Shown here piece after piece: positions 47,262-57,914 of a DNA stretch of 64,000 nt; within the stretch, counting starts at the first letter, position 1, and the number at the start of each line of letters is the position of its first letter. Position numbers and translations under genes: made by a program. Source of the stretch: Bacteriovoracaceae bacterium. GTDB lineage: Bacteria; Bdellovibrionota; Bacteriovoracia; Bacteriovoracales; Bacteriovoracaceae. Location of the stretch: NCBI GenBank assembly GCA_048270185.1, contig JBLWTJ010000002.1, positions 160,001 through 224,000 on the forward strand, in the 5' to 3' direction. Below the pieces are notes generated by a model. That model saw nothing but the letters and a program-made list of their open reading frames with translations, did no database searches and was not told the origin of the DNA.

Positions 47262-47786
47262 TTAAGACTCAAAGTTGATATTAACTTCAACCTTTGTTCC
47301 GTCTTTGCTTTCAAGATGAATGTAGACCTCATCTTCCCCCACTTTCTTACCTTCAACTTTTAATTTTTTATCTTCTTTTTTCTTAAGAGCTGAAACCAGT
47401 GAGATAATTTTTGAATCAAAATTATTTTCAATAACAACGTGATCTTCGTTTACTTCAAGGACAAGGTCTTTTTTGACTTTAATAAGATTGGCCTTGCCAT
47501 CAACAAGGATCTTTCCATTATCAACATTGACCATTTCAGAATCGCCATCAACTTTAACGATATCGCCAACCTTAACCGAGTTATTCTTTCCATCAACCGC
47601 AACAAGATCACCTAGGATATTAACTTTCTGATCTTTTTCGTTGATTTTAATTGCACCCCAAAAAAGAGAAAGGTTTGTTTTCCCATTCTCATCTTTGTCA
47701 TAGCTAAACGATGTATATGTAACAACACCAAGTAGAACAATTACAACTAATGCAATAATACCAACAGTACTTAGAAAGCTTCCCAT
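47262..47786 (-). CDS. Hypothetical membrane-anchored protein
   Basis: N-terminal TM; repetitive V/D/G/K beta-hairpins. Confidence 0.6.
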   Translation of the reverse strand: MGSFLSTVGIIALVVIVLLGVVTYTSFSYDKDENGKTNLSLFWGAIKINEKDQKVNILGDLVAVDGKNNSVKVGDIVKVDGDSEMVNVDNGKILVDGKANLIKVKKDLVLEVNEDHVVIENNFDSKIISLVSALKKKEDKKLKVEGKKVGEDEVYIHLESKDGTKVEVNINFES

Positions 47787-47894: not shown

Positions 47895-48626
47895 CTACAG
47901 AAGTGGCTTAAGTTTTACTTGTTCAAGAACTTCATCAATCACTTTCTGGATGCCATCCTGATTGACACTACCATAACGGCTATAATCTTTTGGCGTTAGG
48001 ACGTGATTGAAACTAAGCTTTGTATCCTTAGTCTTTGTCTCAATACTTTCAAATGACATTTTCTTAACCGCGAAATTAAATGTCACATCCATATCTTCTT
48101 CAACCATTTTAAACTGAAGACTCATCTTTTGAATACTAGTCCAATCTTTTGATGATGGTGGAACGACGGCCGCTTCAATGAAGCCTTTCTTATTTTTAAA
48201 GTTCTTAAGCTTAAAGCGATAGAATTGCTCAAAGACTTCCACAAAGTCAGTAATGACTTTCTTTGGTAAAATATTTAGCTGCATCAAACCACCACCAAAT
48301 GGATCACTTGCATCACCACAGATAATGTAGAGACTTCCCGTTGATTCTGTAATTTGGCAGTCTTGTGCTAATTTGAAATCAAAATCAACTTGATCACCAC
48401 TTGCGTAATCGACACTTTCAAGAACAGTGATCCCCGACTCATCCTTGACCTTTACTTTCTTGGCAGCACAGAAACATAGTTGAACTTTGATATTGGATAG
48501 ATCAACTGAATCACCGCTGTGATTGACAATATTTAATTGGCCCTTCACATGATCACCTTGTGACCAAGTTTCGCCGTCAATATTTAAATTAAATTCTAGT
48601 GGTTTAAAAAAAAATGTAGCTTTCAT
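47895..48626 (-). CDS. Hypothetical protein, possibly Spo0M/arrestin-like
   Basis: N-terminal WSQGDHVKGQLNI beta pattern; weak similarity only. Confidence 0.45.
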   Translation of the reverse strand: MKATFFFKPLEFNLNIDGETWSQGDHVKGQLNIVNHSGDSVDLSNIKVQLCFCAAKKVKVKDESGITVLESVDYASGDQVDFDFKLAQDCQITESTGSLYIICGDASDPFGGGLMQLNILPKKVITDFVEVFEQFYRFKLKNFKNKKGFIEAAVVPPSSKDWTSIQKMSLQFKMVEEDMDVTFNFAVKKMSFESIETKTKDTKLSFNHVLTPKDYSRYGSVNQDGIQKVIDEVLEQVKLKPLL

Positions 48627-48664
48627 GCCCTACACTTTAATTGATTTTTAAAGATGTGGAAAGC

Positions 48665-49513
48665 TTAGTAACCGTACTCTTTTAATAAATTCTTAATGAA
48701 GCCAGTCTTAAGGGCAAACTCAAGAGGGTGTTTCTCATCAAGCGACAGTGATCGCCCACAACCTTCATTAGCATAATCAGGAAAATTCTTCGTTCCACCA
48801 AGTAGGATTCCTTCTAACTCTCCATCATTATTAACAATAGCACTCCCCTTTGTTTCACCTGAAATATCACTTGAGACAAGAAAGTGACGATCACTAAAAT
48901 TTTCAGCGAAAGCATTTGGTGCAATCTTCATAGGCATCCCACGCTGATGGCCGATGGCCGTAAGCTCAGGACCTACGAGGTTTGAGTTATCACTAATCTC
49001 AATAGGCTCTCTATCTTTAACCACCTTATTAAGACGAATAAGCATATAACTTAAAGACTCAGATGGATCGTGGACATGCTTTAAAATCTCTTTACACTTA
49101 TAGTAACCACGAGAGCGCCACTTTTCATTAATTACACCAGGTGTATCCACATGGTAATCAAACATCCAATAGTAGAGGTCATTATTACAATAGTGTTGAG
49201 TTAAGCAGCTTCCCATTGTGAGAAGAATATCTGGAGCGACGAGAACTCCGGAACAATTACTTCGAGTTGTTGGCTGATCAGAGAATCTTTCATCAGAGCA
49301 AACACCTCTTTCTCCAAGAGGATAGTTGAGCATTTTCCAAAAGCGTGCAAAAGTAATTCCTCGAAGCCAAGGTCTATCGACCTGGTAAGCAACAGCACTT
49401 GCAGCTTGCTTTACTTTTTCATTTTGAATTTGATGGTATTCGATACGATCATCACTTCCGTAATGAGCTAGAGTTGATAAAGAAATCAGAAGTAGTGCCG
49501 TTAATTTTATCAT
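48665..49513 (-). CDS. Secreted trypsin-fold protein, catalytic His and Ser absent
   Basis: YGSDDR, CSGVLVAPDILLTMGSC, GHQRGMPMKIA, DISGETKGSAI. Confidence 0.75.
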   Translation of the reverse strand: MIKLTALLLISLSTLAHYGSDDRIEYHQIQNEKVKQAASAVAYQVDRPWLRGITFARFWKMLNYPLGERGVCSDERFSDQPTTRSNCSGVLVAPDILLTMGSCLTQHYCNNDLYYWMFDYHVDTPGVINEKWRSRGYYKCKEILKHVHDPSESLSYMLIRLNKVVKDREPIEISDNSNLVGPELTAIGHQRGMPMKIAPNAFAENFSDRHFLVSSDISGETKGSAIVNNDGELEGILLGGTKNFPDYANEGCGRSLSLDEKHPLEFALKTGFIKNLLKEYGY

Positions 49514-49661
49514 TTTTAAATGTTAGCGAACTAAATATGGGTTGTGTAGTAATAATCAGCGCATGCGCGCAGCGCCAATTTTGACACTTTTCAAGACTCC
49601 CCTTTAACTTACATTCCTACGTGCTACAATCAGCTATTGGTGTATAAATTAGGGAGTATAC

Positions 49662-51146
49662 ATGAGTATTCGAGTACCTTTTCCGGAACAAGGAAAAGAT
49701 CCACAAGTTATTTTAAATAGTTTAAATGATCTAAAAAGAGAAGATTTCAAATGGAACTTAGGAAAAGTCTTTTGCCTTACCTACCCAGTTGATGACTCTC
49801 ACCATGACTTTTTAAAAGAGTCTTATGGAAGCTTCATTAGTGAAAACTTTTTAAATCCAATGGCCTTTGAATCTTTGAAGAAAATGGAAAGAGATGTTGT
49901 TCGTATGACAATTGATCTTCTAAATGGAGATGACAAGTGCGTTGGAACAATGACTAGTGGTGGAACGGAAAGTATTCTCATGGCCGTTAAGGCCGCAAGA
50001 GAGATGGCACGAAAGAAGAGGCCATGGATAAGAACTCCAAATATTGTTTGCGCAAAGTCTGCTCACGTCGCATTCGAAAAAGCCTGTAAGTACTTCGATG
50101 TAAAGTACGTGGCCGTTGATGTTGAAGATGACTTTAAAATGAATTTAAAGAAAATGAAGAAGGCCGTTAATCGCAATACGATTCTTATCGTTGGTTCGGC
50201 CCCTCAATATCCTCAAGGTGTGATTGATCCAATTGAAGAGATGGGACAATTCGCCCTTAAGAAGAAAATCCCATTTCATGTTGATGCTTGTGTTGGTGGT
50301 TTTATGCTGCCATGGCTTGAAAAACTTGGACATGATATTCCTGCGTTTGATTTTAGAGTACCTGGTGTAACTTCGATTTCTGCCGATGTTCACAAGTATG
50401 GTTTTGCGGCAAAGGGTGCATCTGTTGTTATGTATAAGAGTATGGACTATATGAAGCATCAATTCTTCATTAGTACAGACTGGACGGGAGGAGTATATGC
50501 CTCACCTAATATGCCAGGAACAAGGCCAGGTGGAGCGATTGCAGCAGCTTGGGCAACACTTAATAAATTCGGAAAAGAAGGATACTTAAGAGAGTTTGAA
50601 CGCACTATGAATGTCGTGGCCAAATTTATCGAAGGAATCTCAGCAATTGATGGACTTGAAATTTGTGGTAATCCAAAGTCGGCCATTGTTTCATTTCAAA
50701 GTACTGATGAAAATTTAAGCTGTTATGCTATTGCCGATCAAATGATTGAGCGTGGTTGGTTCTTTGATAAAATGCAAGAACCTCAGGCCATTCACTTAAC
50801 AATTATGCCAATTCATGACCTTACTGTTGATGATTTTATTTCAGACTTACAAGAATGTGTTGAAGTTGTTCGCGCTAATCCTGAACTTGCAAAGCAAGGA
50901 GATGCGGCCATGTATGGAATGATGGCCAAGGTTCCAATGAGAGGTCTAGTGAAAAAGACAGTTGGAACAGTGATGGAGGCCATGTGGGGACCAGAAGGAA
51001 AACTTCCAGACCTTGCCAATACTGGTAAGGGTGAAGATGCCTCACCTCTTATGAAGCTTGTGGATAAGTATGGTGATACGGCCATGGATGCCCTTGAGAA
51101 AGCAGAAAAGTTTAAAAAGAATTTAAAGAGTGTCTTTACGAAATGA
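49662..51146 (+). CDS. Sphingosine-1-phosphate lyase-like PLP enzyme
   Basis: NFLNP..F..LKKMERDVV, TSGGTESI, SAHVAFEKA, SAPQYPQGVIDPI, HVDACVGGF, FDFRVPGVTSISADVHKYG, WTGGVYASP, GTRPG, C-terminal AAMYGM. Confidence 0.82.
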   Translation: MSIRVPFPEQGKDPQVILNSLNDLKREDFKWNLGKVFCLTYPVDDSHHDFLKESYGSFISENFLNPMAFESLKKMERDVVRMTIDLLNGDDKCVGTMTSGGTESILMAVKAAREMARKKRPWIRTPNIVCAKSAHVAFEKACKYFDVKYVAVDVEDDFKMNLKKMKKAVNRNTILIVGSAPQYPQGVIDPIEEMGQFALKKKIPFHVDACVGGFMLPWLEKLGHDIPAFDFRVPGVTSISADVHKYGFAAKGASVVMYKSMDYMKHQFFISTDWTGGVYASPNMPGTRPGGAIAAAWATLNKFGKEGYLREFERTMNVVAKFIEGISAIDGLEICGNPKSAIVSFQSTDENLSCYAIADQMIERGWFFDKMQEPQAIHLTIMPIHDLTVDDFISDLQECVEVVRANPELAKQGDAAMYGMMAKVPMRGLVKKTVGTVMEAMWGPEGKLPDLANTGKGEDASPLMKLVDKYGDTAMDALEKAEKFKKNLKSVFTK

Positions 51147-52261
51147 CACCATTAACAGTCGCACTTCTTATTCTCTTTCCGGCTTTTGCTCTTTTCTTAG
51201 AAAAGCGTTTTGAGCTATGTAAGAAAATTGGGGCGATTGTTATCTGCTATGCCGTTGGAATATTTCTTGGAAATAGTGGTATTCCTCTAGGATCAAAAGC
51301 TGCTATCGAAGAAATTGTTAACGTCGTTATTCCAATAGCTATTCCTCTTTTTATTTTTCGCACAGACTTCATTGGGTGGCTTAAACAATCTCGCTCTACA
51401 GTTATTAGCTACACTGTTTGTATCACGATGGTTTCTGCAATCTGTATGTTTAGTGGTGTCTTCTTTTCAAGGTGGATTCCAGAAGCTTGGCAAGTTGCAG
51501 GAATGCTTGCTGGAGTCTACACAGGTGGAACCCCAAATCTAACGGCCATTGCACAAAGCCTTTCAACGCCAAGTGAGATTATCATTCTCACAAACTCAAT
51601 TGATATGGTTACTGGCTCTGTCTTTCTCTTCATTCTTTTGGCATTAGGACGTGAATTCCTAAAAAACTTTCTTCATGTTCTTCCAATTGAAGAAGAAAGC
51701 AATGAGAGTGTTGAAGAAAATCAATCATCAATTTTGAAAGGAGGAAGCTTAGGCCTTCTTCTTTCAATCGTAATTCTTGGTATTGCATTCGGACTAAGTC
51801 ATTTAATCTTTGGAACAGTGAGTGTTGGCTTTATTATTTTTATGATTTCTCTACTTAGTATTGGTCTAAGTTTCAAAGATAAAATTAGAAATCTTTCTGG
51901 CCCATACGAGTTTGGTCAATATCTTCTGATGATTTTCTGCTTTGGAATTGGTCTGATGTCAAATATGAATAACTTTTTAAAGCATAGCTCGGCACTGCTA
52001 GTAATGATAACGACAGTTATCACTCTTTCGATCATTCTTCATTTTATTTTAGCTAAACTCTTTAAAATTGATCGCGATACGGCCGTCATCACTTGCGTGG
52101 CCAGTATCTTTGGCCCGCCATTTGTACCTCTTATAGCTGATCGTTTTAAGAACCAGCAAATGATCATTCCGGGAATCACAACAGGGCTCGTTGGCTTTGC
52201 TATAGGTAATTTTCTAGGGCTATTAATCGCATACTCTGTTAAGTATCTTCAAAATCTATAA
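51143..52261 (+). CDS. DUF819 family multi-pass membrane protein
   Basis: GVYTGGTPNL, ASIFGPPFVP, GFAIGNFLG; ATGA overlap with the upstream gene. Confidence 0.8.
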   Translation: MTPLTVALLILFPAFALFLEKRFELCKKIGAIVICYAVGIFLGNSGIPLGSKAAIEEIVNVVIPIAIPLFIFRTDFIGWLKQSRSTVISYTVCITMVSAICMFSGVFFSRWIPEAWQVAGMLAGVYTGGTPNLTAIAQSLSTPSEIIILTNSIDMVTGSVFLFILLALGREFLKNFLHVLPIEEESNESVEENQSSILKGGSLGLLLSIVILGIAFGLSHLIFGTVSVGFIIFMISLLSIGLSFKDKIRNLSGPYEFGQYLLMIFCFGIGLMSNMNNFLKHSSALLVMITTVITLSIILHFILAKLFKIDRDTAVITCVASIFGPPFVPLIADRFKNQQMIIPGITTGLVGFAIGNFLGLLIAYSVKYLQNL

Positions 52262-52358
52262 TAAATTCAACTAGTTAAAACATTGATTAAGAAATGAGCA
52301 CTACTGTAATCTTTGCTCTTAAACTCCTTATTTTCTCGTAATTTGTTAAAGTGGGTTC

Positions 52359-52931
52359 ATGAAGTATTTAAGAAAATCATCCCTATTCACACTTGTTCTT
52401 CTTATGGGCCTTATTGGCTGTAAGGGACTTGGTTCGAGTGCAGACAGCAAAGTAGTTTCGGGAACAGATGGACTTGAAACAATTGGGACTTGTACTCAAC
52501 AAGAAAAAGATGATTACTTTGTCGCTTTTGAAGGATGTGATTATAATCAACTGACATTCTATGTTGTGGATCAAGAGGTCGTTGACTGCTCTGAGGCCAT
52601 CGATACTTTTGTGGCCACTTACGGACAATATAATTGTACGACCACAGATGATGACCACAATACCATTAATATTGGAATTACAAGTTTAAACCAATTACAA
52701 GCAATCAATACTGAAAGAAATGGATACTTAAATGAAGATTCATCTGGAGCAGATTGTTCACAGAACTTAGCTGACTTCATTGCTGATATCGAAGCTAGAA
52801 GTTATGAAATTTCACAAGAAGAACTTGATGAGCTAATCTCACGTCGTGACTATATCGATTGTTCAGTAGGAACAACTTCTTACGATACTGCTGCCATTCA
52901 AGCAATTATTGATCAAGTTACAGTAATTTAA
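52359..52931 (+). CDS. Acidic Cys-rich lipoprotein (paralog 1)
   Basis: Lipobox LIGC; six further Cys. Confidence 0.7.
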   Translation: MKYLRKSSLFTLVLLMGLIGCKGLGSSADSKVVSGTDGLETIGTCTQQEKDDYFVAFEGCDYNQLTFYVVDQEVVDCSEAIDTFVATYGQYNCTTTDDDHNTINIGITSLNQLQAINTERNGYLNEDSSGADCSQNLADFIADIEARSYEISQEELDELISRRDYIDCSVGTTSYDTAAIQAIIDQVTVI

Positions 52932-52949
52932 TTTAAAGAGATATATAAA

Positions 52950-53519
52950 ATGAAAGGAATTAATTTAGCAGTATTACTACTTTGCCTTACTACGCTTGTA
53001 AGTTGCGATGGAATAATAGAAGCTGGCCCTCGTGTTGAAATATTAAACGCTCTTACGATTACTAATAAATGTACAGATACTGAATATCAAGATTATGCAT
53101 CGACATTTTCTAAATGCTACAATTTAGCTTCTCAACCTTATTTCACAGATGAACAACTCTTGGCCTGTCAGGATGCCCTTGAGCTCTTTACTGAAACTCA
53201 TGGTGAAAAGAATTGTAATGTATTAAATGATCAAGGAAATGGAATAATTGAAGTTGGTCATACTTATCTTTCACAATGGCGTGATAGTGCAGTTAGCATG
53301 AATGAGAATTATCATCAGGATGCATCTGGAGAAGAATGTTCAGATGATCTTGAAACAACAATTAATTTTATCATTGAAAATGATTATGAAGCCTATAGTT
53401 TTCAAAAAGAAAACCTAATCAACCGCGCTATTGTGGTTAATTGCTATATCGATAATGAGTACAACGATGCAAGTACAATCAAAGAAATCGTCGATAAAAT
53501 CGAAGCTAAGGCTTTATAG
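52950..53519 (+). CDS. Acidic Cys-rich lipoprotein (paralog 2)
   Basis: Lipobox LVSC; Cys spacing matches paralog 1. Confidence 0.7.
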   Translation: MKGINLAVLLLCLTTLVSCDGIIEAGPRVEILNALTITNKCTDTEYQDYASTFSKCYNLASQPYFTDEQLLACQDALELFTETHGEKNCNVLNDQGNGIIEVGHTYLSQWRDSAVSMNENYHQDASGEECSDDLETTINFIIENDYEAYSFQKENLINRAIVVNCYIDNEYNDASTIKEIVDKIEAKAL

Positions 53520-54990
53520 AAGTGTAAACCTTCTGCTTGCTAATTTCATAAGAGCGCTCCCACAGTTGAATGAACTTCTCAGCAGAATGTTCAATCCCAT
53601 GAGTATCAACACCTAAATGATTTAGATCCGTCATAAGATCAGAAAGCTGATCAATACGACCAAGGCCTGTCGTATCAAAATTTGTTCCAAGTCTTGGAAT
53701 TTTTTGACCTTTGCAATAATCTTCGTCATGATCAGAAAAGCGCGGTCTTGTTTGCGGAATAAAGCCATTAAAGTCGGAACCAAATGCAATATTCACCCCC
53801 ATACTTTGTCCAAATTTTAAAACCTGAGCAAGTGAAAGAGAGCTTCCATCGCAATTATTTTGAATACTCTTATCCACTTGATGAGCAGGATAAGTAATTG
53901 TTCGAATACCAAAGACACCATCAGCTTCTTTAAGTTCTTTAAGTAATTCCCTTGAAGTCGACTTTTCAAAGTGTCCAAGCCCATCCCTTTGAGCATCTCT
54001 AAAGTGTCCATGGGAAAAGTAAAATGGATAATTCTTAGGCTTGATGATTTTAATAACATCATTCATTGTCTGCTCAGACATATGGGCAAAGTCAATTGGC
54101 ATTCCGAGACTTACCATGTGTTCGATAACTTCTTTTCCTTTTTCGGAAAGGCCCTTAGTATTTCTTTCAACTTCCCTGACACCAAAATCAGTTTTGTACT
54201 CAATCGTCTCCGTATCAAAGCCTTGAAACTTTCCATAGCGAAGCCAATTTCTAATATACTGAGCAAATTTAAGAGGTCCTTTATGAAGAGCTGCTCCGGC
54301 CATTTCATTATCAAATTGGTGTACAATTTGGAGTGTTCTTGCCCCTGCATCCCAGTATGTTTGAAATTCTTTTTGCCAATTTTCGTTTTCAAAAACATTG
54401 CTCGATTCAACAGAGAAGATAATAGCAAGCTTACCTTCTTTAATAATTCTTCTGGCATCCATTGGCGTTAAGGCCAACTCAACCCAGTCATTTGCTTCTA
54501 TAAAAGCTTTTGCATTCTTAAGTTGGCGAAGGTGGTTATCCATATCTTCACAAGAATCGAAGCGTCGACGTGAATCCGGCAGGATCTTACAAAGAACAAA
54601 TGAGTGGACTGATGACATAACCATGAGACTTAATCCATTTTCATGGGCCTTTTTTAGATCCTGATACCAAACTTGTTGGTGGGCCAGATCATTCCACGCA
54701 GGAAATGATTTCTCAAAAGGGACACAATGATTACGATAAAGAAATGAGCTAATATAGGGATCAACATCTTCTATCACACCCTTAAACCATGGCCAAGTCT
54801 CACCTTCTTTACAGTAGTTAAAAAGATCCTCTCTCTTCTTTGCAGCAGGATCTCCAAGGGACCAAGCACCTGCAAAGGCATCATTGGCATACATGTGTAC
54901 ATGGAGGTCTGCGTAGCCCTTTACGGCCTTATCACTTGCAAATAGATGTGAAGATATAAGTATGAGAATTGAAAAGAATATTTTTTTCAT
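53506..54990 (-). CDS. Secreted M19-like amidohydrolase, sphingolipid ceramide N-deacylase-like
   Basis: Signal peptide; GYADLHVH, FPAWNDLAHQQ, GLSLMV, DFAHMS, FSHG, FGSDFNG. Confidence 0.7.
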   Translation of the reverse strand: MKKIFFSILILISSHLFASDKAVKGYADLHVHMYANDAFAGAWSLGDPAAKKREDLFNYCKEGETWPWFKGVIEDVDPYISSFLYRNHCVPFEKSFPAWNDLAHQQVWYQDLKKAHENGLSLMVMSSVHSFVLCKILPDSRRRFDSCEDMDNHLRQLKNAKAFIEANDWVELALTPMDARRIIKEGKLAIIFSVESSNVFENENWQKEFQTYWDAGARTLQIVHQFDNEMAGAALHKGPLKFAQYIRNWLRYGKFQGFDTETIEYKTDFGVREVERNTKGLSEKGKEVIEHMVSLGMPIDFAHMSEQTMNDVIKIIKPKNYPFYFSHGHFRDAQRDGLGHFEKSTSRELLKELKEADGVFGIRTITYPAHQVDKSIQNNCDGSSLSLAQVLKFGQSMGVNIAFGSDFNGFIPQTRPRFSDHDEDYCKGQKIPRLGTNFDTTGLGRIDQLSDLMTDLNHLGVDTHGIEHSAEKFIQLWERSYEISKQKVYTSIKP

Positions 54991-55039
54991 GACTAAGTAA
55001 ACCCCTAAATTGACTTACTTAATCCTAGCATAAATATTT

Positions 55040-56743
55040 CTAGATTTTAAAGTCCTCACAGGCCTTTAAATCATCTGATTTATCTAATTTCGCCTGACAG
55101 CTAAGAAATGCATATCCTCTGGCATAAGAGAGGATTTTCTTAATATTATCAGCACGTTCGACAGCTTTCGCTCTGTGGCAAGCAATTGTGTTTTCACTAC
55201 AATTGGCATCGACTTTCTTGTAATTACTTTTAAAGAATGAAACCGCATTCTTTTGGGCCTCATTACCACTTTGCTCAACTTTCTTAATACAATTTGAAAT
55301 TGTTGATGAAAGTATATCGTAAGTTGAGCGTGATCGAGCAGACAGTCCATAAGGCTTTCCACTTTTTGAAAGCTCATAAGAAACCTTTCTAAGCTTTCTC
55401 TCACCTCCATAAATCTTATTCTCTCTTTCAAATTGCAGAATATCTGAAACAGCAATCTGCATTCCTTTCGATCGATAGCTTAAGGCACACTTATTAGCCT
55501 TGCGTTCATCTTGATAGATTGTTTTACAAAGAGTTTTGGCAAGATTTTCTGAGCGAGCTGAATCAGCATAGTAACTTCGACTTGAACTATGTGAGCTAGC
55601 AAAACTACAATGAACAGGAGTATTGAGAGCAGGGTCACTCATGATCTTTGACTCTTCAGTAACAAGTGGACCAATCTTATCAAATTCGGCTTCATCATTA
55701 GAAATCAGTTCTTCTAACTTTTGCTTTAGACCTTCTGGTTCAGGAATATTAGCAGGATCAACTTTGGCAATCTTTGCAAGAGTCGCTTTATCAGCTCCTG
55801 AATCAATTTTTAGTTTTGAGACAATTTCTTCAACCGTTTCAATTTCTTTATCTCTTTTTTCTGTTAGAACTCCAATATTGGACTGACATACTGGCCGGAA
55901 TTCTTCGTTTTGATATTTCGAATATTTTGCAAAGTTAACTTGTTTCTCATCGCCACAACCAGAGATTTGATTAGTATCATCATAAATTCGCTGAAGAACG
56001 GTTGCTCCATCTTTATAATCAATATTAACTAATTTTGGTTCTTGATTGATAAGTAAATCAAGGTGTAGATCCGCTAAGCTCTTCCCTTTATTGTCTTTCA
56101 AGTGCGAGAAGGCATTATTTATATATTCACTATGAGCGGAACTAAAGGCACCTGTTGATGTCATGACACAACCAAGCCCTTTAAAGACATCAGTTGAAGC
56201 ACCACTCTTACAAGAGTAGTCCATGATCGCAAGCTTTGGTTTATCACAACCTGAATCTTCACTTCTCTTTTGCTTAAGTAATTTTGCAATTTGGTCGGCG
56301 TAAATTCTTTCTGATTTTTGATCTGCGCCGACACCATTGATTGAGTGACGAGCATAAGATTGCTTAGTCTTTGGATCATAGTAATTTCTAGAACCGTGAG
56401 CAACAAAGTTTAACATGAATTGCTCAGGCCTCTCACTACAAGGCTTATTATAGATAAATTCAATCGATTTTTTTAAGTTATCATATGTGAATGGTCTAGA
56501 GTACGAACCAGAATCAGTTGAGAAATCTTTGGCCGTCTTCTCATTCCCAAATAAACTCTTAACAACGTAGCCCGAATCTTTAAGCATTTTACGTGCATGA
56601 ACATTTTGTTCTTGAACAAACTTCGCCCCACCTTCATGATCAGCACCAACAGTAAGAGCGATCTTCTTTGGCGGATCTTTCTTTGTTTGAGCAAGTACGC
56701 TAATCGAACTAAAGAATATTAGAAATGATAGAATTACTTGCAA
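55040..56743 (-). CDS. Secreted clan CD (caspase/legumain-like) cysteine peptidase
   Basis: LNFVAHG and IMDYSCKSG dyad motifs; signal peptide; Cys-rich C-terminus. Confidence 0.6.
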   Translation of the reverse strand: MQVILSFLIFFSSISVLAQTKKDPPKKIALTVGADHEGGAKFVQEQNVHARKMLKDSGYVVKSLFGNEKTAKDFSTDSGSYSRPFTYDNLKKSIEFIYNKPCSERPEQFMLNFVAHGSRNYYDPKTKQSYARHSINGVGADQKSERIYADQIAKLLKQKRSEDSGCDKPKLAIMDYSCKSGASTDVFKGLGCVMTSTGAFSSAHSEYINNAFSHLKDNKGKSLADLHLDLLINQEPKLVNIDYKDGATVLQRIYDDTNQISGCGDEKQVNFAKYSKYQNEEFRPVCQSNIGVLTEKRDKEIETVEEIVSKLKIDSGADKATLAKIAKVDPANIPEPEGLKQKLEELISNDEAEFDKIGPLVTEESKIMSDPALNTPVHCSFASSHSSSRSYYADSARSENLAKTLCKTIYQDERKANKCALSYRSKGMQIAVSDILQFERENKIYGGERKLRKVSYELSKSGKPYGLSARSRSTYDILSSTISNCIKKVEQSGNEAQKNAVSFFKSNYKKVDANCSENTIACHRAKAVERADNIKKILSYARGYAFLSCQAKLDKSDDLKACEDFKI

Positions 56744-57081
56744 GACATTTCCTTTTTAAGAGTGAACCCTTCTTTCTTAATCGCCGAGACTTGTTGTATT
56801 GGAGAAGATAGTGCTTTTGCCAATATCTCATCTCTTATGCTTTCAACTTCAATATCCATTTTAATATCACGGCCACTAAAGTAATTAAGACTATATTGGC
56901 CTTCACTTAGTTTTATCTTAAATTTCGATAACTTAGACTCTCCTAGAATAAGCTCGCACCCCTGTGCTCCTTGGCAATTTAACTTTGCAAATACTTGATA
57001 TTGCCCGCATTTATCTATCTTCTGATCAGAATCAAAGGCATGGGCACTAGCTAGAATGAAGAATAAGATGAATTGTTTCAC
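56734..57081 (-). CDS. Small secreted hypothetical protein
   Basis: Signal peptide ending AHA, 4 Cys; overlaps the start of the peptidase gene. Confidence 0.6.
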   Translation of the reverse strand: MKQFILFFILASAHAFDSDQKIDKCGQYQVFAKLNCQGAQGCELILGESKLSKFKIKLSEGQYSLNYFSGRDIKMDIEVESIRDEILAKALSSPIQQVSAIKKEGFTLKKEMSCK

Positions 57082-57181: not shown

Positions 57182-57385
57182 ATGACAAAGGAATTAGCGG
57201 CCCATAATGTTGGTGTTGAAGAGTTTAAAGGAAATAAAATTTTTAAAATCTACAAAGTCGATGATGAAGGTAATGAGCTTGAAAAGTACGGAACAGTAGT
57301 AAGCTTTGGTGTAACGAAAGCACGTTATATTCTAGAAAATATCGATCAGATTAAGAAATTTGTTGAAACATTTGATAATGAATAA
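57182..57385 (+). CDS. Small hypothetical protein
   Basis: ggga g RBS; EFKGN...SFGVTKARYILENIDQIKKFV; followed by a hairpin. Confidence 0.7.
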   Translation: MTKELAAHNVGVEEFKGNKIFKIYKVDDEGNELEKYGTVVSFGVTKARYILENIDQIKKFVETFDNE

Positions 57386-57431: not shown

Positions 57432-57914
57432 TTACTGCTTATTATAGTAATAAATTGGTGATCCACCTGCCTCACGACAAGTTTTGTAATTTGTAAAAGT
57501 ATCTTGAACACTTAACTTTAGTTTTCCATCAGCATATTCATAATCAAAGATTGACCCAGCTGACTCGACACCAAAGTGTTGCTTCTTTAAAATATTCTTC
57601 CATACACCTAGGTTACAATCAACATCAGCAATTTCAAGTCCACCAACATACTGACCTTCACCTACATACTTAAACTCTCCAGCATTAACTTGAGTACAAT
57701 TTAAAATATATGGTGCCCATTTCGCACTTTTTGCAATGGCAGTCATTTCAATTGATTCCTCTGCAATTTCAATAGTGACATTATATCTCATGAATGCACC
57801 ACCAAGTTTTAGAACTTGACCTGTCGTACACTCAATACGATCAAGAAGGTACGAGCCTTGTGGAATTGTTGCAAAAGTTGAAAATGCTAATAGTAGTGAT
57901 ACTAAGTACTTCAT
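57432..57914 (-). CDS. Secreted hypothetical protein (lipocalin-like beta protein)
   Basis: Signal peptide; GSYLL; 4 Cys. Confidence 0.5.
   Translation of the reverse strand: MKYLVSLLLAFSTFATIPQGSYLLDRIECTTGQVLKLGGAFMRYNVTIEIAEESIEMTAIAKSAKWAPYILNCTQVNAGEFKYVGEGQYVGGLEIADVDCNLGVWKNILKKQHFGVESAGSIFDYEYADGKLKLSVQDTFTNYKTCREAGGSPIYYYNKQ

What the first reader, a model, noticed from the sequence alone, without database searches (positions are those of the whole stretch)
49662..54990. Candidate sphingolipid-catabolism locus: S1P lyase, DUF819 membrane protein, two lipoproteins and a ceramide N-deacylase-like enzyme
Seen: an S1P-lyase-type PLP enzyme translationally coupled (ATGA) to a DUF819 protein, then two paralogous lipoproteins, converging on a secreted amidohydrolase. 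Known: S1P lyase cleaves sphingoid base 1-phosphates to fatty aldehyde and phosphoethanolamine and is rare in bacteria (Legionella, Burkholderia, Symbiobacterium); SCDase removes the N-acyl chain from sphingolipids; Bacteriovorax stolpii makes sphingophosphonolipids. Inference: two enzymes for successive sphingolipid breakdown steps within 5.3 kb suggest a deacylate, import and cleave pathway for prey or self sphingolipids, with DUF819 as a candidate importer. No sphingosine kinase is visible in the window.
Basis: partly seen in the sequence, partly recalled or inferred. Interest (0 to 1): 0.8.

Follow-up and report, generated by a model that had tools for sequence, protein, structure and literature searches.

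The report
Sphingosine-phosphate lyase with partner membrane transporter
A predatory-type bacterium carries, on a small species-specific gene islet, a genuine sphingosine-1-phosphate-lyase gene fused in expression to an uncharacterised membrane transporter that travels with it across related genomes, which points to a bacterial route for taking up and breaking down sphingolipid bases.

Summary
All five genes exist as described, including the ATGA overlap. 49662-51146 is a true S1P-lyase-family enzyme: solved SPLs match at E 1e-107 to 1e-66, decarboxylases at 4e-30 or worse. It belongs to a clade in which one substrate-phosphate ligand, StSPL His129, is Asn.

The firm result is a lyase/DUF819 partnership. 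DUF819 is the commonest real neighbour of this lyase (10 of 29 other loci). In 301 genomes of the phylum, the lyase-type DUF819 occurs in 14, and all 14 carry the lyase. They are 14 of the 15 lyase-bearing genomes of the window's family, in 8 of them on another contig. Sister loci add a ceramidase, an ALDH3-like dehydrogenase, Ntn amidases or other amidohydrolases.

The "deacylase" has an M19-type fold. It is nearer to Shewanella-type SCDase homologues (BLASTP 6e-29; sister clade) than to renal dipeptidases, but is not an SCDase orthologue. It lies beside the lyase only here and follows a probable secreted peptidase gene.

The two lipoproteins are near-orphans. The block sits in a 9.6-kb species-specific islet. 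The genome has an SPT-like gene but no DAGK-type kinase and no ceramidase.

Verdict: the sphingoid-base uptake-and-cleavage module is well supported; the full deacylate-import-cleave pathway is only circumstantial. This scan had already noted lyase plus DUF819 on other DNA (e1-358287).

The parts
49662..51146 (+). S1P-lyase-family PLP enzyme (494 aa), soluble, no membrane anchor
   Evidence: phmmer against PDB: human SPL 8ayf/4q6r 7.5e-107, StSPL 3mad 3.9e-102, yeast Dpl1 3mc6 7.6e-98, Burkholderia 5k1r 1.1e-90, Legionella 4w8i 2.8e-66; best decarboxylase MfnA 4e-30. PLP and catalytic residues are kept; His129 is Asn and Ser353 is Thr. No hydrophobic segment.
51143..52261 (+). DUF819 (PF05684) polytopic membrane protein of the lyase-linked subfamily; candidate transporter
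   Evidence: Pfam 125.6 bits. ATGA overlap with the lyase. At least 9 hydrophobic segments. Single copy in the genome. Co-occurs with the lyase.
52359..52931 (+). Lipoprotein Lpp1 (190 aa), near-orphan, six conserved Cys
   Evidence: Lipobox seen by eye. Paralogue of Lpp2. Only 4 representatives among 1.84 billion proteins. AF2 model pLDDT 81, with no PDB fold match.
52950..53519 (+). Lipoprotein Lpp2 (189 aa), paralogue of Lpp1
53506..54990 (-). Secreted M19-fold metallo-amidohydrolase of an SCDase-related family (494 aa)
   Evidence: Pfam PF01244 97.2 bits. No single-sequence PDB hit; profile hit 3id7 at 6e-11. AF2 pLDDT 90, and the 20 PDB matches at E<=0.001 are all M19-type (renal-dipeptidase-family) barrels. 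BLASTP 6e-29 to the Shewanella corallii SCDase homologue. Sister to the SCDase clade in the tree.
55040..56743 (-). Secreted 567-aa protein, probable clan-CD (C13-like) peptidase, directly upstream of the amidohydrolase on the same strand (context only)
   Evidence: No Pfam hit above cut-off. Atlas feature search: 27 of 30 hits are Peptidase_C13 clusters at 0.92, which is a lead only. A His-Gly and Cys dyad-like motif was seen by eye.
56734..57081 (-). Small secreted protein (115 aa) overlapping the start of the 567-aa gene by 10 nt (context only)
47895..57081 (.). Species-specific islet: nine genes with no counterpart in the syntenic region of same-genus genomes
   Evidence: No DNA match between window 48255 and 57164 in 12 same-genus genomes. 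In G004, G008, G009 and G011 the flanking genes are kept but other genes lie between them. The lyase and the M19-like gene were not found in 12 of 12 same-genus genomes.

Best explanation
The core of the finding is a two-gene module. A cytoplasmic S1P-lyase-family enzyme splits a sphingoid-base phosphate, or a close head-group analogue, into a fatty aldehyde and a phospho-ethanolamine-type product. A DUF819 secondary transporter of a lyase-specific subfamily most probably brings the amphipathic substrate across the inner membrane.

Here the module lies in a species-specific 9.6-kb islet and is probably co-transcribed with two orphan periplasmic lipoproteins. A secreted amidohydrolase of an SCDase-related family converges on it. 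That enzyme may strip the N-acyl chain from sphingolipids outside the cytoplasm, a role that unrelated amidases (ceramidase, Ntn amidases, other amidohydrolases) may fill in sister loci.

Shown: family membership of the lyase, the lyase-DUF819 linkage and co-occurrence, the fold and relatedness of the amidohydrolase, and the islet. Inferred: direction and substrate of transport, the lipid substrate of the amidohydrolase, any role of the lipoproteins, and how the substrate gets its phosphate.
For: Lyase. Solved SPLs match at 227-361 bits, against 108 bits or less for decarboxylases. Nine of the 12 StSPL cofactor or substrate residues named in PMC10243590 (passages read) are identical and one is conservative.

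Partnership. DUF819 lies within about 3 kb of the lyase in all 3 related genomes that have the lyase. It is the most recurrent real neighbour: 10 of 29 other loci, and 8 of 17 loci with at least 3 kb on both sides. Among 41 relatives, the low-scoring DUF819 type is found in exactly the 4 lyase genomes. Among 301 genomes of the phylum, the lyase-type DUF819 (299 bits or more; all others 112 or less) is in 14, and all 14 are lyase-positive. They are 14 of the 15 lyase-positive genomes of the window's family and 0 of the 53 lyase-negative ones. The two genes are adjacent in 6 and on different contigs in 8 (Fisher 1e-13, though kin are not independent).

Pathway context elsewhere. Found near the lyase were: alkaline ceramidase PF05875 (L005, L007); an ALDH3-like dehydrogenase directly after the lyase (L006); TetR; Ntn AAT-type and penicillin-amidase-type hydrolases plus a putative outer-membrane barrel (L017); and Amidohydro_2 directly upstream of the lyase in 5 Myxococcota loci.

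Amidohydrolase. BLASTP gives 107 bits end-to-end to the SCDase homologue, while no renal dipeptidase in PDB reaches E 0.001 by single sequence. A clade with 98% SH-aLRT unites its family with the SCDase clade, apart from two canonical M19 proteins. Strong family members occur in 3 of 301 genomes, and all 3 are lyase-positive.

Background. The genome has an SPT-like gene (3a2b/8guh at 9e-121), which is conserved in 11 of 12 same-genus genomes.
Against: No enzyme activity or transport has been measured.

The clade replaces a substrate-phosphate ligand: His129 is Asn in 23 of 26 members.

No kinase explains where a phosphorylated base would come from. There is no DAGK_cat, and the only FGGY gene is GlpK.

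The lyase exists without the lyase-type DUF819 in 18 of the 32 lyase-positive genomes of the phylum sample, 17 of them in other families. DUF819 is therefore not a general requirement.

The amidohydrolase and the lipoproteins are in 0 of 29 other lyase loci. The 9 other M19-like loci examined hold no lyase, DUF819 or Lpp. The amidohydrolase shares a strand and probably a transcript with a peptidase-like gene.

The tree is a quick search with only two canonical M19 outgroup rows and some long branches. The M19 co-occurrence rests on 2 genomes besides the window's own.
Confidence: 0.6

Rival explanations
1. Two unrelated units lie side by side by accident of an accessory islet. One is the lyase-DUF819(-Lpp) unit. 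The other is a separate secreted-hydrolase operon (small secreted protein, clan-CD-like peptidase, M19-like enzyme) that digests prey peptides. On this reading the amidohydrolase is a peptidase and has nothing to do with sphingolipids.
For: The three minus-strand genes overlap by 10 nt or are separated by 49 nt. A terminator-like site lies only upstream of them, after the preceding operon. The upstream gene resembles C13 peptidases in a feature search. A secreted trypsin-like gene lies on the other side of the lyase. The fold is that of M19 dipeptidases. The amidohydrolase is beside the lyase in no other locus.
Against: It is much nearer to SCDase homologues than to dipeptidases. Close homologues sit next to short-chain dehydrogenases (L057, L058) and, in L041, near a START lipid-binding-domain protein, not next to peptidases. 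All 3 strong family members in 301 genomes are in lyase-positive genomes.
Confidence: 0.3
2. The lyase of this clade does not use S1P. With His129 replaced and no kinase in the genome, it may cleave a lyso-sphingolipid that still carries its head group (for example lyso-ceramide-phosphoethanolamine) or an unphosphorylated amino-diol. DUF819 would import that compound.
For: The clade-wide signature changes the phosphate pocket: His129 to Asn in 23 of 26, Ala103 to Leu in 23 of 26, Ser353 to Thr in 23 of 26. No DAGK_cat was found and the only FGGY gene is GlpK. No FGGY was found among the roughly 139 neighbour proteins scanned, unlike the kinase-lyase pairs noted earlier in this scan.
Against: Tyr105, Asn126 and Lys317, which also bind the phosphate or phosphoethanolamine, are kept. 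Asn can still hydrogen-bond phosphate. No PEP mutase was found, so phosphonolipids are unlikely in this genome. An unknown kinase cannot be excluded.
Confidence: 0.15
3. DUF819 is not the importer. Instead it exports or exchanges something tied to the lyase reaction, such as phosphoethanolamine or an excess of toxic sphingoid base, or it anchors the soluble lyase at the membrane.
For: Co-occurrence alone does not give direction. The characterised members of the CPA/AT re-entrant group named in PMC8396727 (passages read) carry small anions. The lyase has no membrane anchor of its own.
Against: A cytoplasmic lyase needs an imported or internally made substrate. Sister loci place secreted or membrane deacylases, lipoproteins and an outer-membrane barrel beside the pair, which reads as an inward route.
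Confidence: 0.15

Closest known systems
S1P lyases with solved structures: human SGPL1 (4Q6R, 8AYF), Symbiobacterium thermophilum StSPL (3MAD), yeast Dpl1p (3MC6), Burkholderia pseudomallei (5K1R), Legionella (4W8I)
   Same: The alignment covers residues 7-443 at E 1e-107 (human). The PLP lysine, the His before it, Asp274, His201, Gly168-Thr169, Tyr105, Asn126 and Lys317 (StSPL numbering) are all kept.
   Different: There is no N-terminal membrane segment. His129 is Asn, Ser353 is Thr and Ala103 is Leu, as part of a clade signature. A C-terminal tail of about 50 residues has no match in the solved SPLs. The gene is paired with DUF819; I found no paper mentioning both.
Sphingolipid ceramide N-deacylase (SCDase) of Shewanella alga G8 (Furusato et al. 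2002: citation seen in PMC8435702, paper not held; residues 516-643 seen in that paper's supplementary figure)
   Same: Both have a secreted M19-related catalytic domain. The window protein aligns end-to-end with the catalytic domain of the Shewanella corallii homologue (E 6e-29). The two share N-terminal D-x-H-x-H, the H-M-S block and the G-x-D-x-x-G...Q..P-R block (by eye). They are sister clades in the tree.
   Different: Identity is only 23%. The window protein lacks the roughly 210-residue N-terminal domain, and the long C-terminal part seen in the 988-1011-aa homologues. It is not inside the SCDase clade. The substrate is unknown.
Renal/membrane dipeptidases, MEROPS M19 (DPEP1 1ITQ, Sco3058 3ID7, GliJ 5LWZ)
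   Same: Same TIM-barrel fold: Foldseek E 1e-13 to 1e-9, TM 0.61-0.75 on the target. Pfam PF01244 scores above its cut-off.
   Different: No single-sequence match and 11-16% identity. There are about 130 extra residues and conserved cysteines. The first metal motif is H-x-H where, from recall, M19 enzymes have H-x-D.
Eukaryotic sphingolipid degradation: ceramidase, sphingosine kinase, S1P lyase, fatty aldehyde dehydrogenase ALDH3A2 (textbook knowledge, recalled)
   Same: A ceramidase, the lyase and an ALDH3-like gene occur around this lyase clade in sister loci.
   Different: No DAGK-type kinase was found in the genome. A DUF819 membrane protein accompanies the lyase instead. The deacylase differs from locus to locus.

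Membership tests
S1P lyase (PLP fold type I, group II decarboxylase-like) | Sequence closer to proven SPLs than to amino-acid decarboxylases | tested here: met
   Ten SPL sequences match at E 7.5e-107 to 2.8e-66. The best decarboxylases are MfnA at 4e-30 and GadB at 1.2e-24. The NCBIfam MfnA and GAD models score below their cut-offs.
S1P lyase | PLP-binding Lys311 and cofactor residues His310, Asp274, His201, Gly168, Thr169 (StSPL numbering, PMC10243590) | tested here: met
   All six are identical in the window protein and in 26 of 26 clade members.
S1P lyase | Substrate phosphate/phosphoethanolamine ligands Tyr105, Asn126, His129, Ser353, Lys317 | tested here: not met
   Tyr, Asn and Lys are kept. 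His129 is Asn (23 of 26 in the clade) and Ser353 is Thr. The pocket is altered, and the consequence is unknown.
S1P lyase | Retro-aldol cleavage of sphingoid-base 1-phosphate | not testable with these tools
   This needs an enzyme assay.
DUF819 (PF05684, CPA/AT clan) | Full-length match above the Pfam cut-off; polytopic membrane protein | tested here: met
   125.6 bits against a cut-off of 27, covering profile positions 1-377 of 379. At least 9 hydrophobic segments. It scores 93-131 bits in the lyase-linked type against 303-313 bits for the canonical type in relatives, so it is a distinct subfamily.
Peptidase M19 / renal dipeptidase | M19 TIM-barrel fold and Pfam match | tested here: met
   PF01244 at 97.2 bits against a cut-off of 26. 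The AF2 model has pLDDT 90, and the 20 PDB matches at E<=0.001 are all M19-type (renal-dipeptidase-family) barrels.
Peptidase M19 / renal dipeptidase | Binuclear-zinc ligand set of DPEP1 (His, Asp, bridging Glu, two His; recalled, not from a call) | tested here: inconclusive
   These are invariant or nearly invariant in 28 family members: D28, H30, H32, E195, H303, H327, H329, D406. The first motif is H-x-H rather than the recalled H-x-D. I did not superpose the ligands.
SCDase (sphingolipid ceramide N-deacylase) | Orthology: falls inside the clade of Shewanella-type SCDases | tested here: not met
   It is a sister family. The SCDase homologues L047-L049 group with other long forms (97*), and the window's family forms its own clade (95*). 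The two are joined at 98* (quick tree). Identity is 23%.
SCDase | Domain layout: N-terminal extra domain plus catalytic domain (plus a long C-terminal part) | tested here: not met
   The window protein is catalytic domain only (494 aa). The homologues are 726, 988 and 1011 aa, and the match begins at their residue 212.
SCDase | Hydrolysis of the N-acyl bond of glycosphingolipids or ceramide | not testable with these tools
   This needs an enzyme assay.
Bacterial lipoprotein | Signal peptide ending in a lipobox with Cys | tested here: met
   L-I-G-C and L-V-S-C were read by eye. The Cys is invariant in all 4 family members. No dedicated predictor was run.

The most novel reading that the evidence does not exclude
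The lyase-linked DUF819 subfamily is a bacterial inner-membrane importer for phosphorylated or head-group-bearing sphingoid bases. It lets a bacterium without any sphingosine kinase feed an S1P-lyase whose phosphate pocket has been remodelled. The SCDase-related M19 family, together with the orphan lipoproteins, forms the periplasmic front end that makes the lyso-lipid. That would be a kinase-free sphingolipid salvage route and a first function for DUF819.
Probability: 0.2. Interest if true: 0.8.

Novelty: new variant of a known kind. Interest (0 to 1): 0.6.

Why it matters
Bacterial S1P lyases are known mainly as secreted effectors or isolated enzymes. How free-living or predatory bacteria obtain and degrade sphingoid bases is poorly described.

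A transporter family with no known function (DUF819) that is inherited together with the lyase, even when the two genes are unlinked, gives a concrete and testable candidate for the uptake step. The missing kinase and the altered phosphate pocket raise the question of what the true substrate is.

The work also places a family of several hundred secreted "membrane dipeptidases" of Myxococcota and Bdellovibrionota next to SCDase, an enzyme used in glycolipid chemistry. That suggests new sources of lipid N-deacylases. I found no paper that mentions S1P lyase together with DUF819, and none with the lyase, Myxococcus and operon. The four papers holding the lyase and Bdellovibrio were seen as listings only.

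Tried and rejected
- A single-sequence PDB search with the amidohydrolase found nothing at E 0.001.
- A search of longer proteins and the protein atlas returned only "membrane dipeptidase" names and no named SCDase.
- The SCDase papers (PubMed 11827965, PMC4548787) are not held.
- A genome-collection scan with the single amidohydrolase gave one locus. The metagenome scan gave 8. None held the lyase, DUF819, Lpp or the peptidase-like gene.
- Lpp1 fold: the Foldseek best hit was E 0.47, with weak elicitin rows (TM 0.30-0.32, probability 0.12-0.20). The VIA wide best was Z 6.0, on generic helical pairs. No fold was assigned.
- I considered a START-like nature for the secreted 224- and 242-aa proteins next to the lyase in L005 and L007. 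No similarity to the START protein of L041 was found.
- Ceramidase families PF05875 and PF04734 did not match in the own genome, but the control genomes did not match either. PF05875 was, however, detected in L005 and L007 by a protein scan.
- The sphingophosphonolipid reading was not adopted, because no PEP mutase was found in a genome that is 95.9% complete.
No result exists, so physical contact between the two proteins is untested.
- The promoter scan found fewer sites than shuffled sequence does (25 against 32) and is not used.

Full report
**Observation.**
The lyase stop and the DUF819 start overlap in ATGA at 51143-51146. A GGGAG ribosome-binding-like site precedes the lyase ATG (read). 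The gaps are -4, 97 and 18 nt, with no terminator-like site between them. The four plus-strand genes may therefore be one transcript, which is inference.

The two small proteins are paralogues (29% identity, E 1e-18). Each has a lipobox and six conserved cysteines. The second lipoprotein gene and the minus-strand amidohydrolase gene overlap tail to tail by 14 nt.

**The lyase.**
Against all PDB chains the protein matches S1P lyases at these E-values:
- human: 7.5e-107
- Symbiobacterium: 3.9e-102
- yeast: 7.6e-98
- a protist: 1.6e-91
- Burkholderia: 1.1e-90
- Legionella: 2.8e-66

The best decarboxylases are MfnA at 4e-30 and GadB at 1.2e-24. NCBIfam decarboxylase models score below their cut-offs.

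I took the StSPL residues from passages of PMC10243590 and the printed alignments, then mapped them onto 26 clade members. Lys311, His310, Asp274, His201, Gly168, Thr169, Asn126 and Lys317 are invariant. Tyr105 is Tyr in 23 members and Phe in 3. Three positions differ from the solved enzymes as a clade signature:
- His129 is Asn in 23, Ser in 2 and Phe in 1.
- Ser353 is Thr in 23.
- Ala103 is Leu in 23.

The protein has no hydrophobic segment, so it is a soluble cytoplasmic enzyme. I conclude it is a true member of the S1P-lyase family with a remodelled head-group pocket.

**The partner.**
Among 41 relatives the lyase is in 4 genomes: the own genome and three other genera, at 44-46% identity. 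It is in none of the 12 other genomes of the genus. In all three of those other genomes, DUF819 lies within about 3 kb.

A scan of one genome per species gave 27 loci; one, L034, was only a 52-residue match and was left out. I clustered all ORFs of at least 100 aa within 6 kb of the lyase in 29 loci plus the window. Apart from the lyase and its antisense shadows, DUF819 is the most recurrent neighbour. It is present in 10 of 29 other loci, in 8 of the 17 loci with at least 3 kb on both sides, and in 2 of the 12 truncated ones.

DUF819 is rare in general. It matched 1 of 14 control genomes and is single-copy here. In the 41 relatives, Pfam DUF819 is in 6 genomes. The four lyase genomes have a low-scoring type (93-131 bits). 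Two lyase-less genomes have the canonical type (303-313 bits).

I then searched 301 genomes of the phylum. The lyase clade is in 32: the own genome, 14 of 67 others in the own family, 7 of 34, 9 of 12 and 1 of 5 in three other families. A profile of the lyase-linked DUF819 proteins separates 14 genomes at 299-515 bits from all others at 112 bits or less. All 14 are lyase-positive. They make up 14 of the 15 lyase-positive genomes of the window's family and none of the 53 lyase-negative ones.

The two genes are within 5 kb in 6 genomes and on different contigs in 8, so the association survives loss of linkage. In one genus, 2 of 7 genomes have the lyase, and the same 2 have this DUF819. A Fisher test gives 1e-13, but related genomes are not independent and the figure overstates the case. 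In the other three families, all 17 lyase-positive genomes lack this DUF819, so it is not a universal requirement.

**What the neighbours say.**
Pfam scans of 27, 100 and 12 proteins show the following around this lyase clade:
- G021 and G023 (L005, L007): an alkaline ceramidase (PF05875), a secreted 224- or 242-aa protein and a 721- or 742-aa lipoprotein in the lyase operon, with TetR-DUF819 divergent from it.
- G013 (L006): DUF819, then the lyase, then an aldehyde dehydrogenase whose best NCBIfam model is the class-3-like MdlD.
- L017: TetR, the lyase, DUF819, an AAT-type Ntn hydrolase, a probable outer-membrane barrel and a penicillin-amidase-type acylase.
- L009 and L010: an MFS transporter and a CN-hydrolase.
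- L016, L019, L021, L025, L033 (five Myxococcota loci): an Amidohydro_2 gene directly upstream of the lyase.
- L008, L013, L030 (the three closest relatives): a DUF2126-like protein.

An aldehyde dehydrogenase and a ceramidase are what a sphingolipid-degrading route needs on either side of the lyase. The variety of amide hydrolases suggests that one step is filled by unrelated enzymes, which is inference. No FGGY kinase was seen in these scans. The 16 loci not fully Pfam-scanned were covered only by clustering.

Earlier notes of this scan describe lyase-FGGY pairs in other clades, and one myxobacterial operon with the lyase, DUF819, two Ntn hydrolases and an outer-membrane barrel. The latter matches what I saw in L017.

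**The amidohydrolase.**
Pfam calls it M19 (97.2 bits). No PDB chain matches by single sequence. A profile of 28 homologues reaches M19 dipeptidases only at 6e-11, over short stretches. The AF2 model (pLDDT 90) has the M19 barrel. The 20 PDB matches at E<=0.001 are all renal-dipeptidase-family structures, with E 1e-13 to 1e-9, TM 0.61-0.75 on the target and about 0.5 on the query, which reflects about 130 extra residues.

Homologues are annotated "membrane dipeptidase" and come mostly from Myxococcota and metagenomes.

PMC8435702 states that residues 516-643 of the Shewanella SCDase weakly resemble DPEP1 (passages). Its supplementary figure prints that stretch. A short degenerate motif from it found three genes, in Marinobacter, Shewanella corallii and Ferrimonas, of 1011, 726 and 988 aa. 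By eye, the Shewanella corallii protein is roughly three-quarters identical to the printed stretch; this was not computed. I treat these three as SCDase homologues, not as the characterised enzyme.

The window protein aligns with the S. corallii protein from residue 19 to 480 (their 212-714) at 107 bits, E 6e-29 and 23% identity.

I built a quick maximum-likelihood tree of 30 rows rooted on two canonical M19 proteins from relatives. A clade with 98% SH-aLRT holds the window's family (17 rows, 95%) and the clade containing the three SCDase homologues (9 rows, 97%). The window protein is therefore SCDase-related but in a sister family. The caveats are a quick search, two outgroup rows, and three long branches flagged by the tool.

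**Is the amidohydrolase tied to the lyase?**
Evidence against:
- It is absent from all 29 other lyase loci.
- It is absent from 40 of 40 relatives.
- The 9 other loci encoding family members (L041; L057-L064) contain no lyase, DUF819, Lpp or peptidase-like gene.
- It follows two minus-strand genes: a small secreted protein and a 567-aa secreted protein. For the latter, a feature search points to C13 peptidases (27 of 30 hits at 0.92, a lead only).

Evidence for:
- In the 301-genome sample, strong family members (338 bits or more) occur in three genomes, and all three are lyase-positive though unlinked. Two weaker hits (111 bits) are in lyase-negative genomes. Leaving out the window's genome, the chance value is 0.010, which rests on two genomes.
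- Close homologues sit beside short-chain dehydrogenases in 2 loci. In L041, one sits two genes from a START lipid-binding-domain protein.

I rate the lipid-deacylase reading at about 0.3.

**The lipoproteins.**
A profile search of 1.84 billion representatives found four proteins, two of which are the window's own. The AF2 model is confident in the core, but neither Foldseek nor the wide structural search gave a convincing match. Their role is unknown. The only link to the module is position.

**The islet and the genome.**
Same-genus genomes match the window's DNA up to about 48.25 kb and again from about 57.19 kb, but not between those points. In four of them, the flanking genes are syntenic while seven other genes fill the gap. 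These flanking genes are the homologue of 47262-47786 on one side, and the homologues of 57432-57914 and the TonB receptor on the other.

The whole block is thus accessory to this species. It comprises a 243-aa protein, a trypsin-like protease, the lyase, DUF819, Lpp1, Lpp2, the amidohydrolase, the peptidase-like protein and the small secreted protein. Its G+C is slightly higher than the flanks (0.38-0.41 against 0.34-0.36).

The genome, which is 95.9% complete, has these features:
- One alpha-oxoamine synthase, whose best PDB matches are Sphingobacterium serine palmitoyltransferase at 9e-121. Its best NCBIfam model is a serine palmitoyltransferase at 516 bits, below the cut-off of 640.
- That gene is kept in 11 of 12 same-genus genomes; the exception is 73% complete.
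- No DAGK_cat domain.
- One FGGY gene, which is glycerol kinase.
- No PEP mutase.

The genus therefore probably makes sphingolipids, while only this species has the catabolic module. G013 has the module but no SPT-like gene at E 1e-100, which fits use of foreign sphingolipids there.

**Mechanism proposed.**
Shown: a cytoplasmic SPL-family enzyme and a polytopic CPA/AT-clan membrane protein are inherited together.

Inferred: DUF819 imports the sphingoid substrate. The lyase cleaves it to a fatty aldehyde, which is oxidised by an ALDH where one is present, and a phosphoethanolamine-type product. Deacylation outside the cytoplasm is done by whichever amidase the locus carries, here possibly the SCDase-related enzyme.

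Unexplained: the source of the phosphate. The possibilities are import of an already phosphorylated or head-group-bearing base, an unrecognised kinase, or a substrate without phosphate.

**Novelty.**
Bacterial S1P lyases, SCDase and M19 enzymes are known. The lyase-DUF819 partnership and the SCDase-related family are not in the papers I could search. Of the ten papers that mention DUF819, I read passages in two. Neither deals with sphingolipids. This scan had already noted the partnership once on other DNA.

Noticed in passing
window 49662-51146; loci L005-L033: The whole lyase clade carries S-E-N-x-L-N-P-x-A-F where solved S1P lyases have S-N-P-L-H-P. The phosphate-binding His129 of StSPL is Asn in 23 of 26 members.
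   Followed up: partly
L041:6401-7816(-), L030:1482-2843(-), L007:15351-17027(-): RoxA-like di-haem cytochrome c genes recur near these systems. Orthologues at 71% identity lie 70 bp from the M19-like gene in L041 and 5 kb upstream of lyase-DUF819 in L030. A 29% relative abuts DUF819 in L007. The window's genome has three such genes elsewhere.
   Followed up: partly
window 55040-56743(-) and 56734-57081(-): A secreted 567-aa protein with no Pfam family looks like a clan-CD (C13-type) peptidase by feature search and by a His-Gly/Cys motif. It is preceded by an overlapping gene for a small secreted protein.
   Followed up: partly
window 57191-57384: A stretch of about 190 nt between genes is 75-80% identical at DNA level in at least five same-genus genomes. 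That is as high as or higher than the coding flanks. A minus-strand terminator-like hairpin lies next to it at 57413-57388. It could be a conserved non-coding element or a small gene.
   Followed up: no
L016:2735-3730, L019:6982-7980, L021:6764-7960, L025:1-669, L033:5506-6567: A cytoplasmic Amidohydro_2 (PF04909) gene lies directly upstream of the lyase in five Myxococcota loci. It is a conserved pair of unknown role.
   Followed up: partly
G000 contig C3, locus L056:1453-2661(-): The genome's only alpha-oxoamine synthase is most like Sphingobacterium serine palmitoyltransferase. It is core to the genus, at 78-94% identity in 11 of 12 genomes.
   Followed up: yes
L057:1971-2720, L058:926-1675: Short-chain dehydrogenase genes abut the two closest metagenomic homologues of the M19-like gene, upstream in one and overlapping downstream in the other.
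   Followed up: no
window 47895-48626(-) and 48665-49513(-): The islet also holds a 243-aa cytoplasmic protein without a family and a secreted trypsin-like protease. Homologues of the protease lie 3-7 kb from the lyase in L005 and L011.
   Followed up: no
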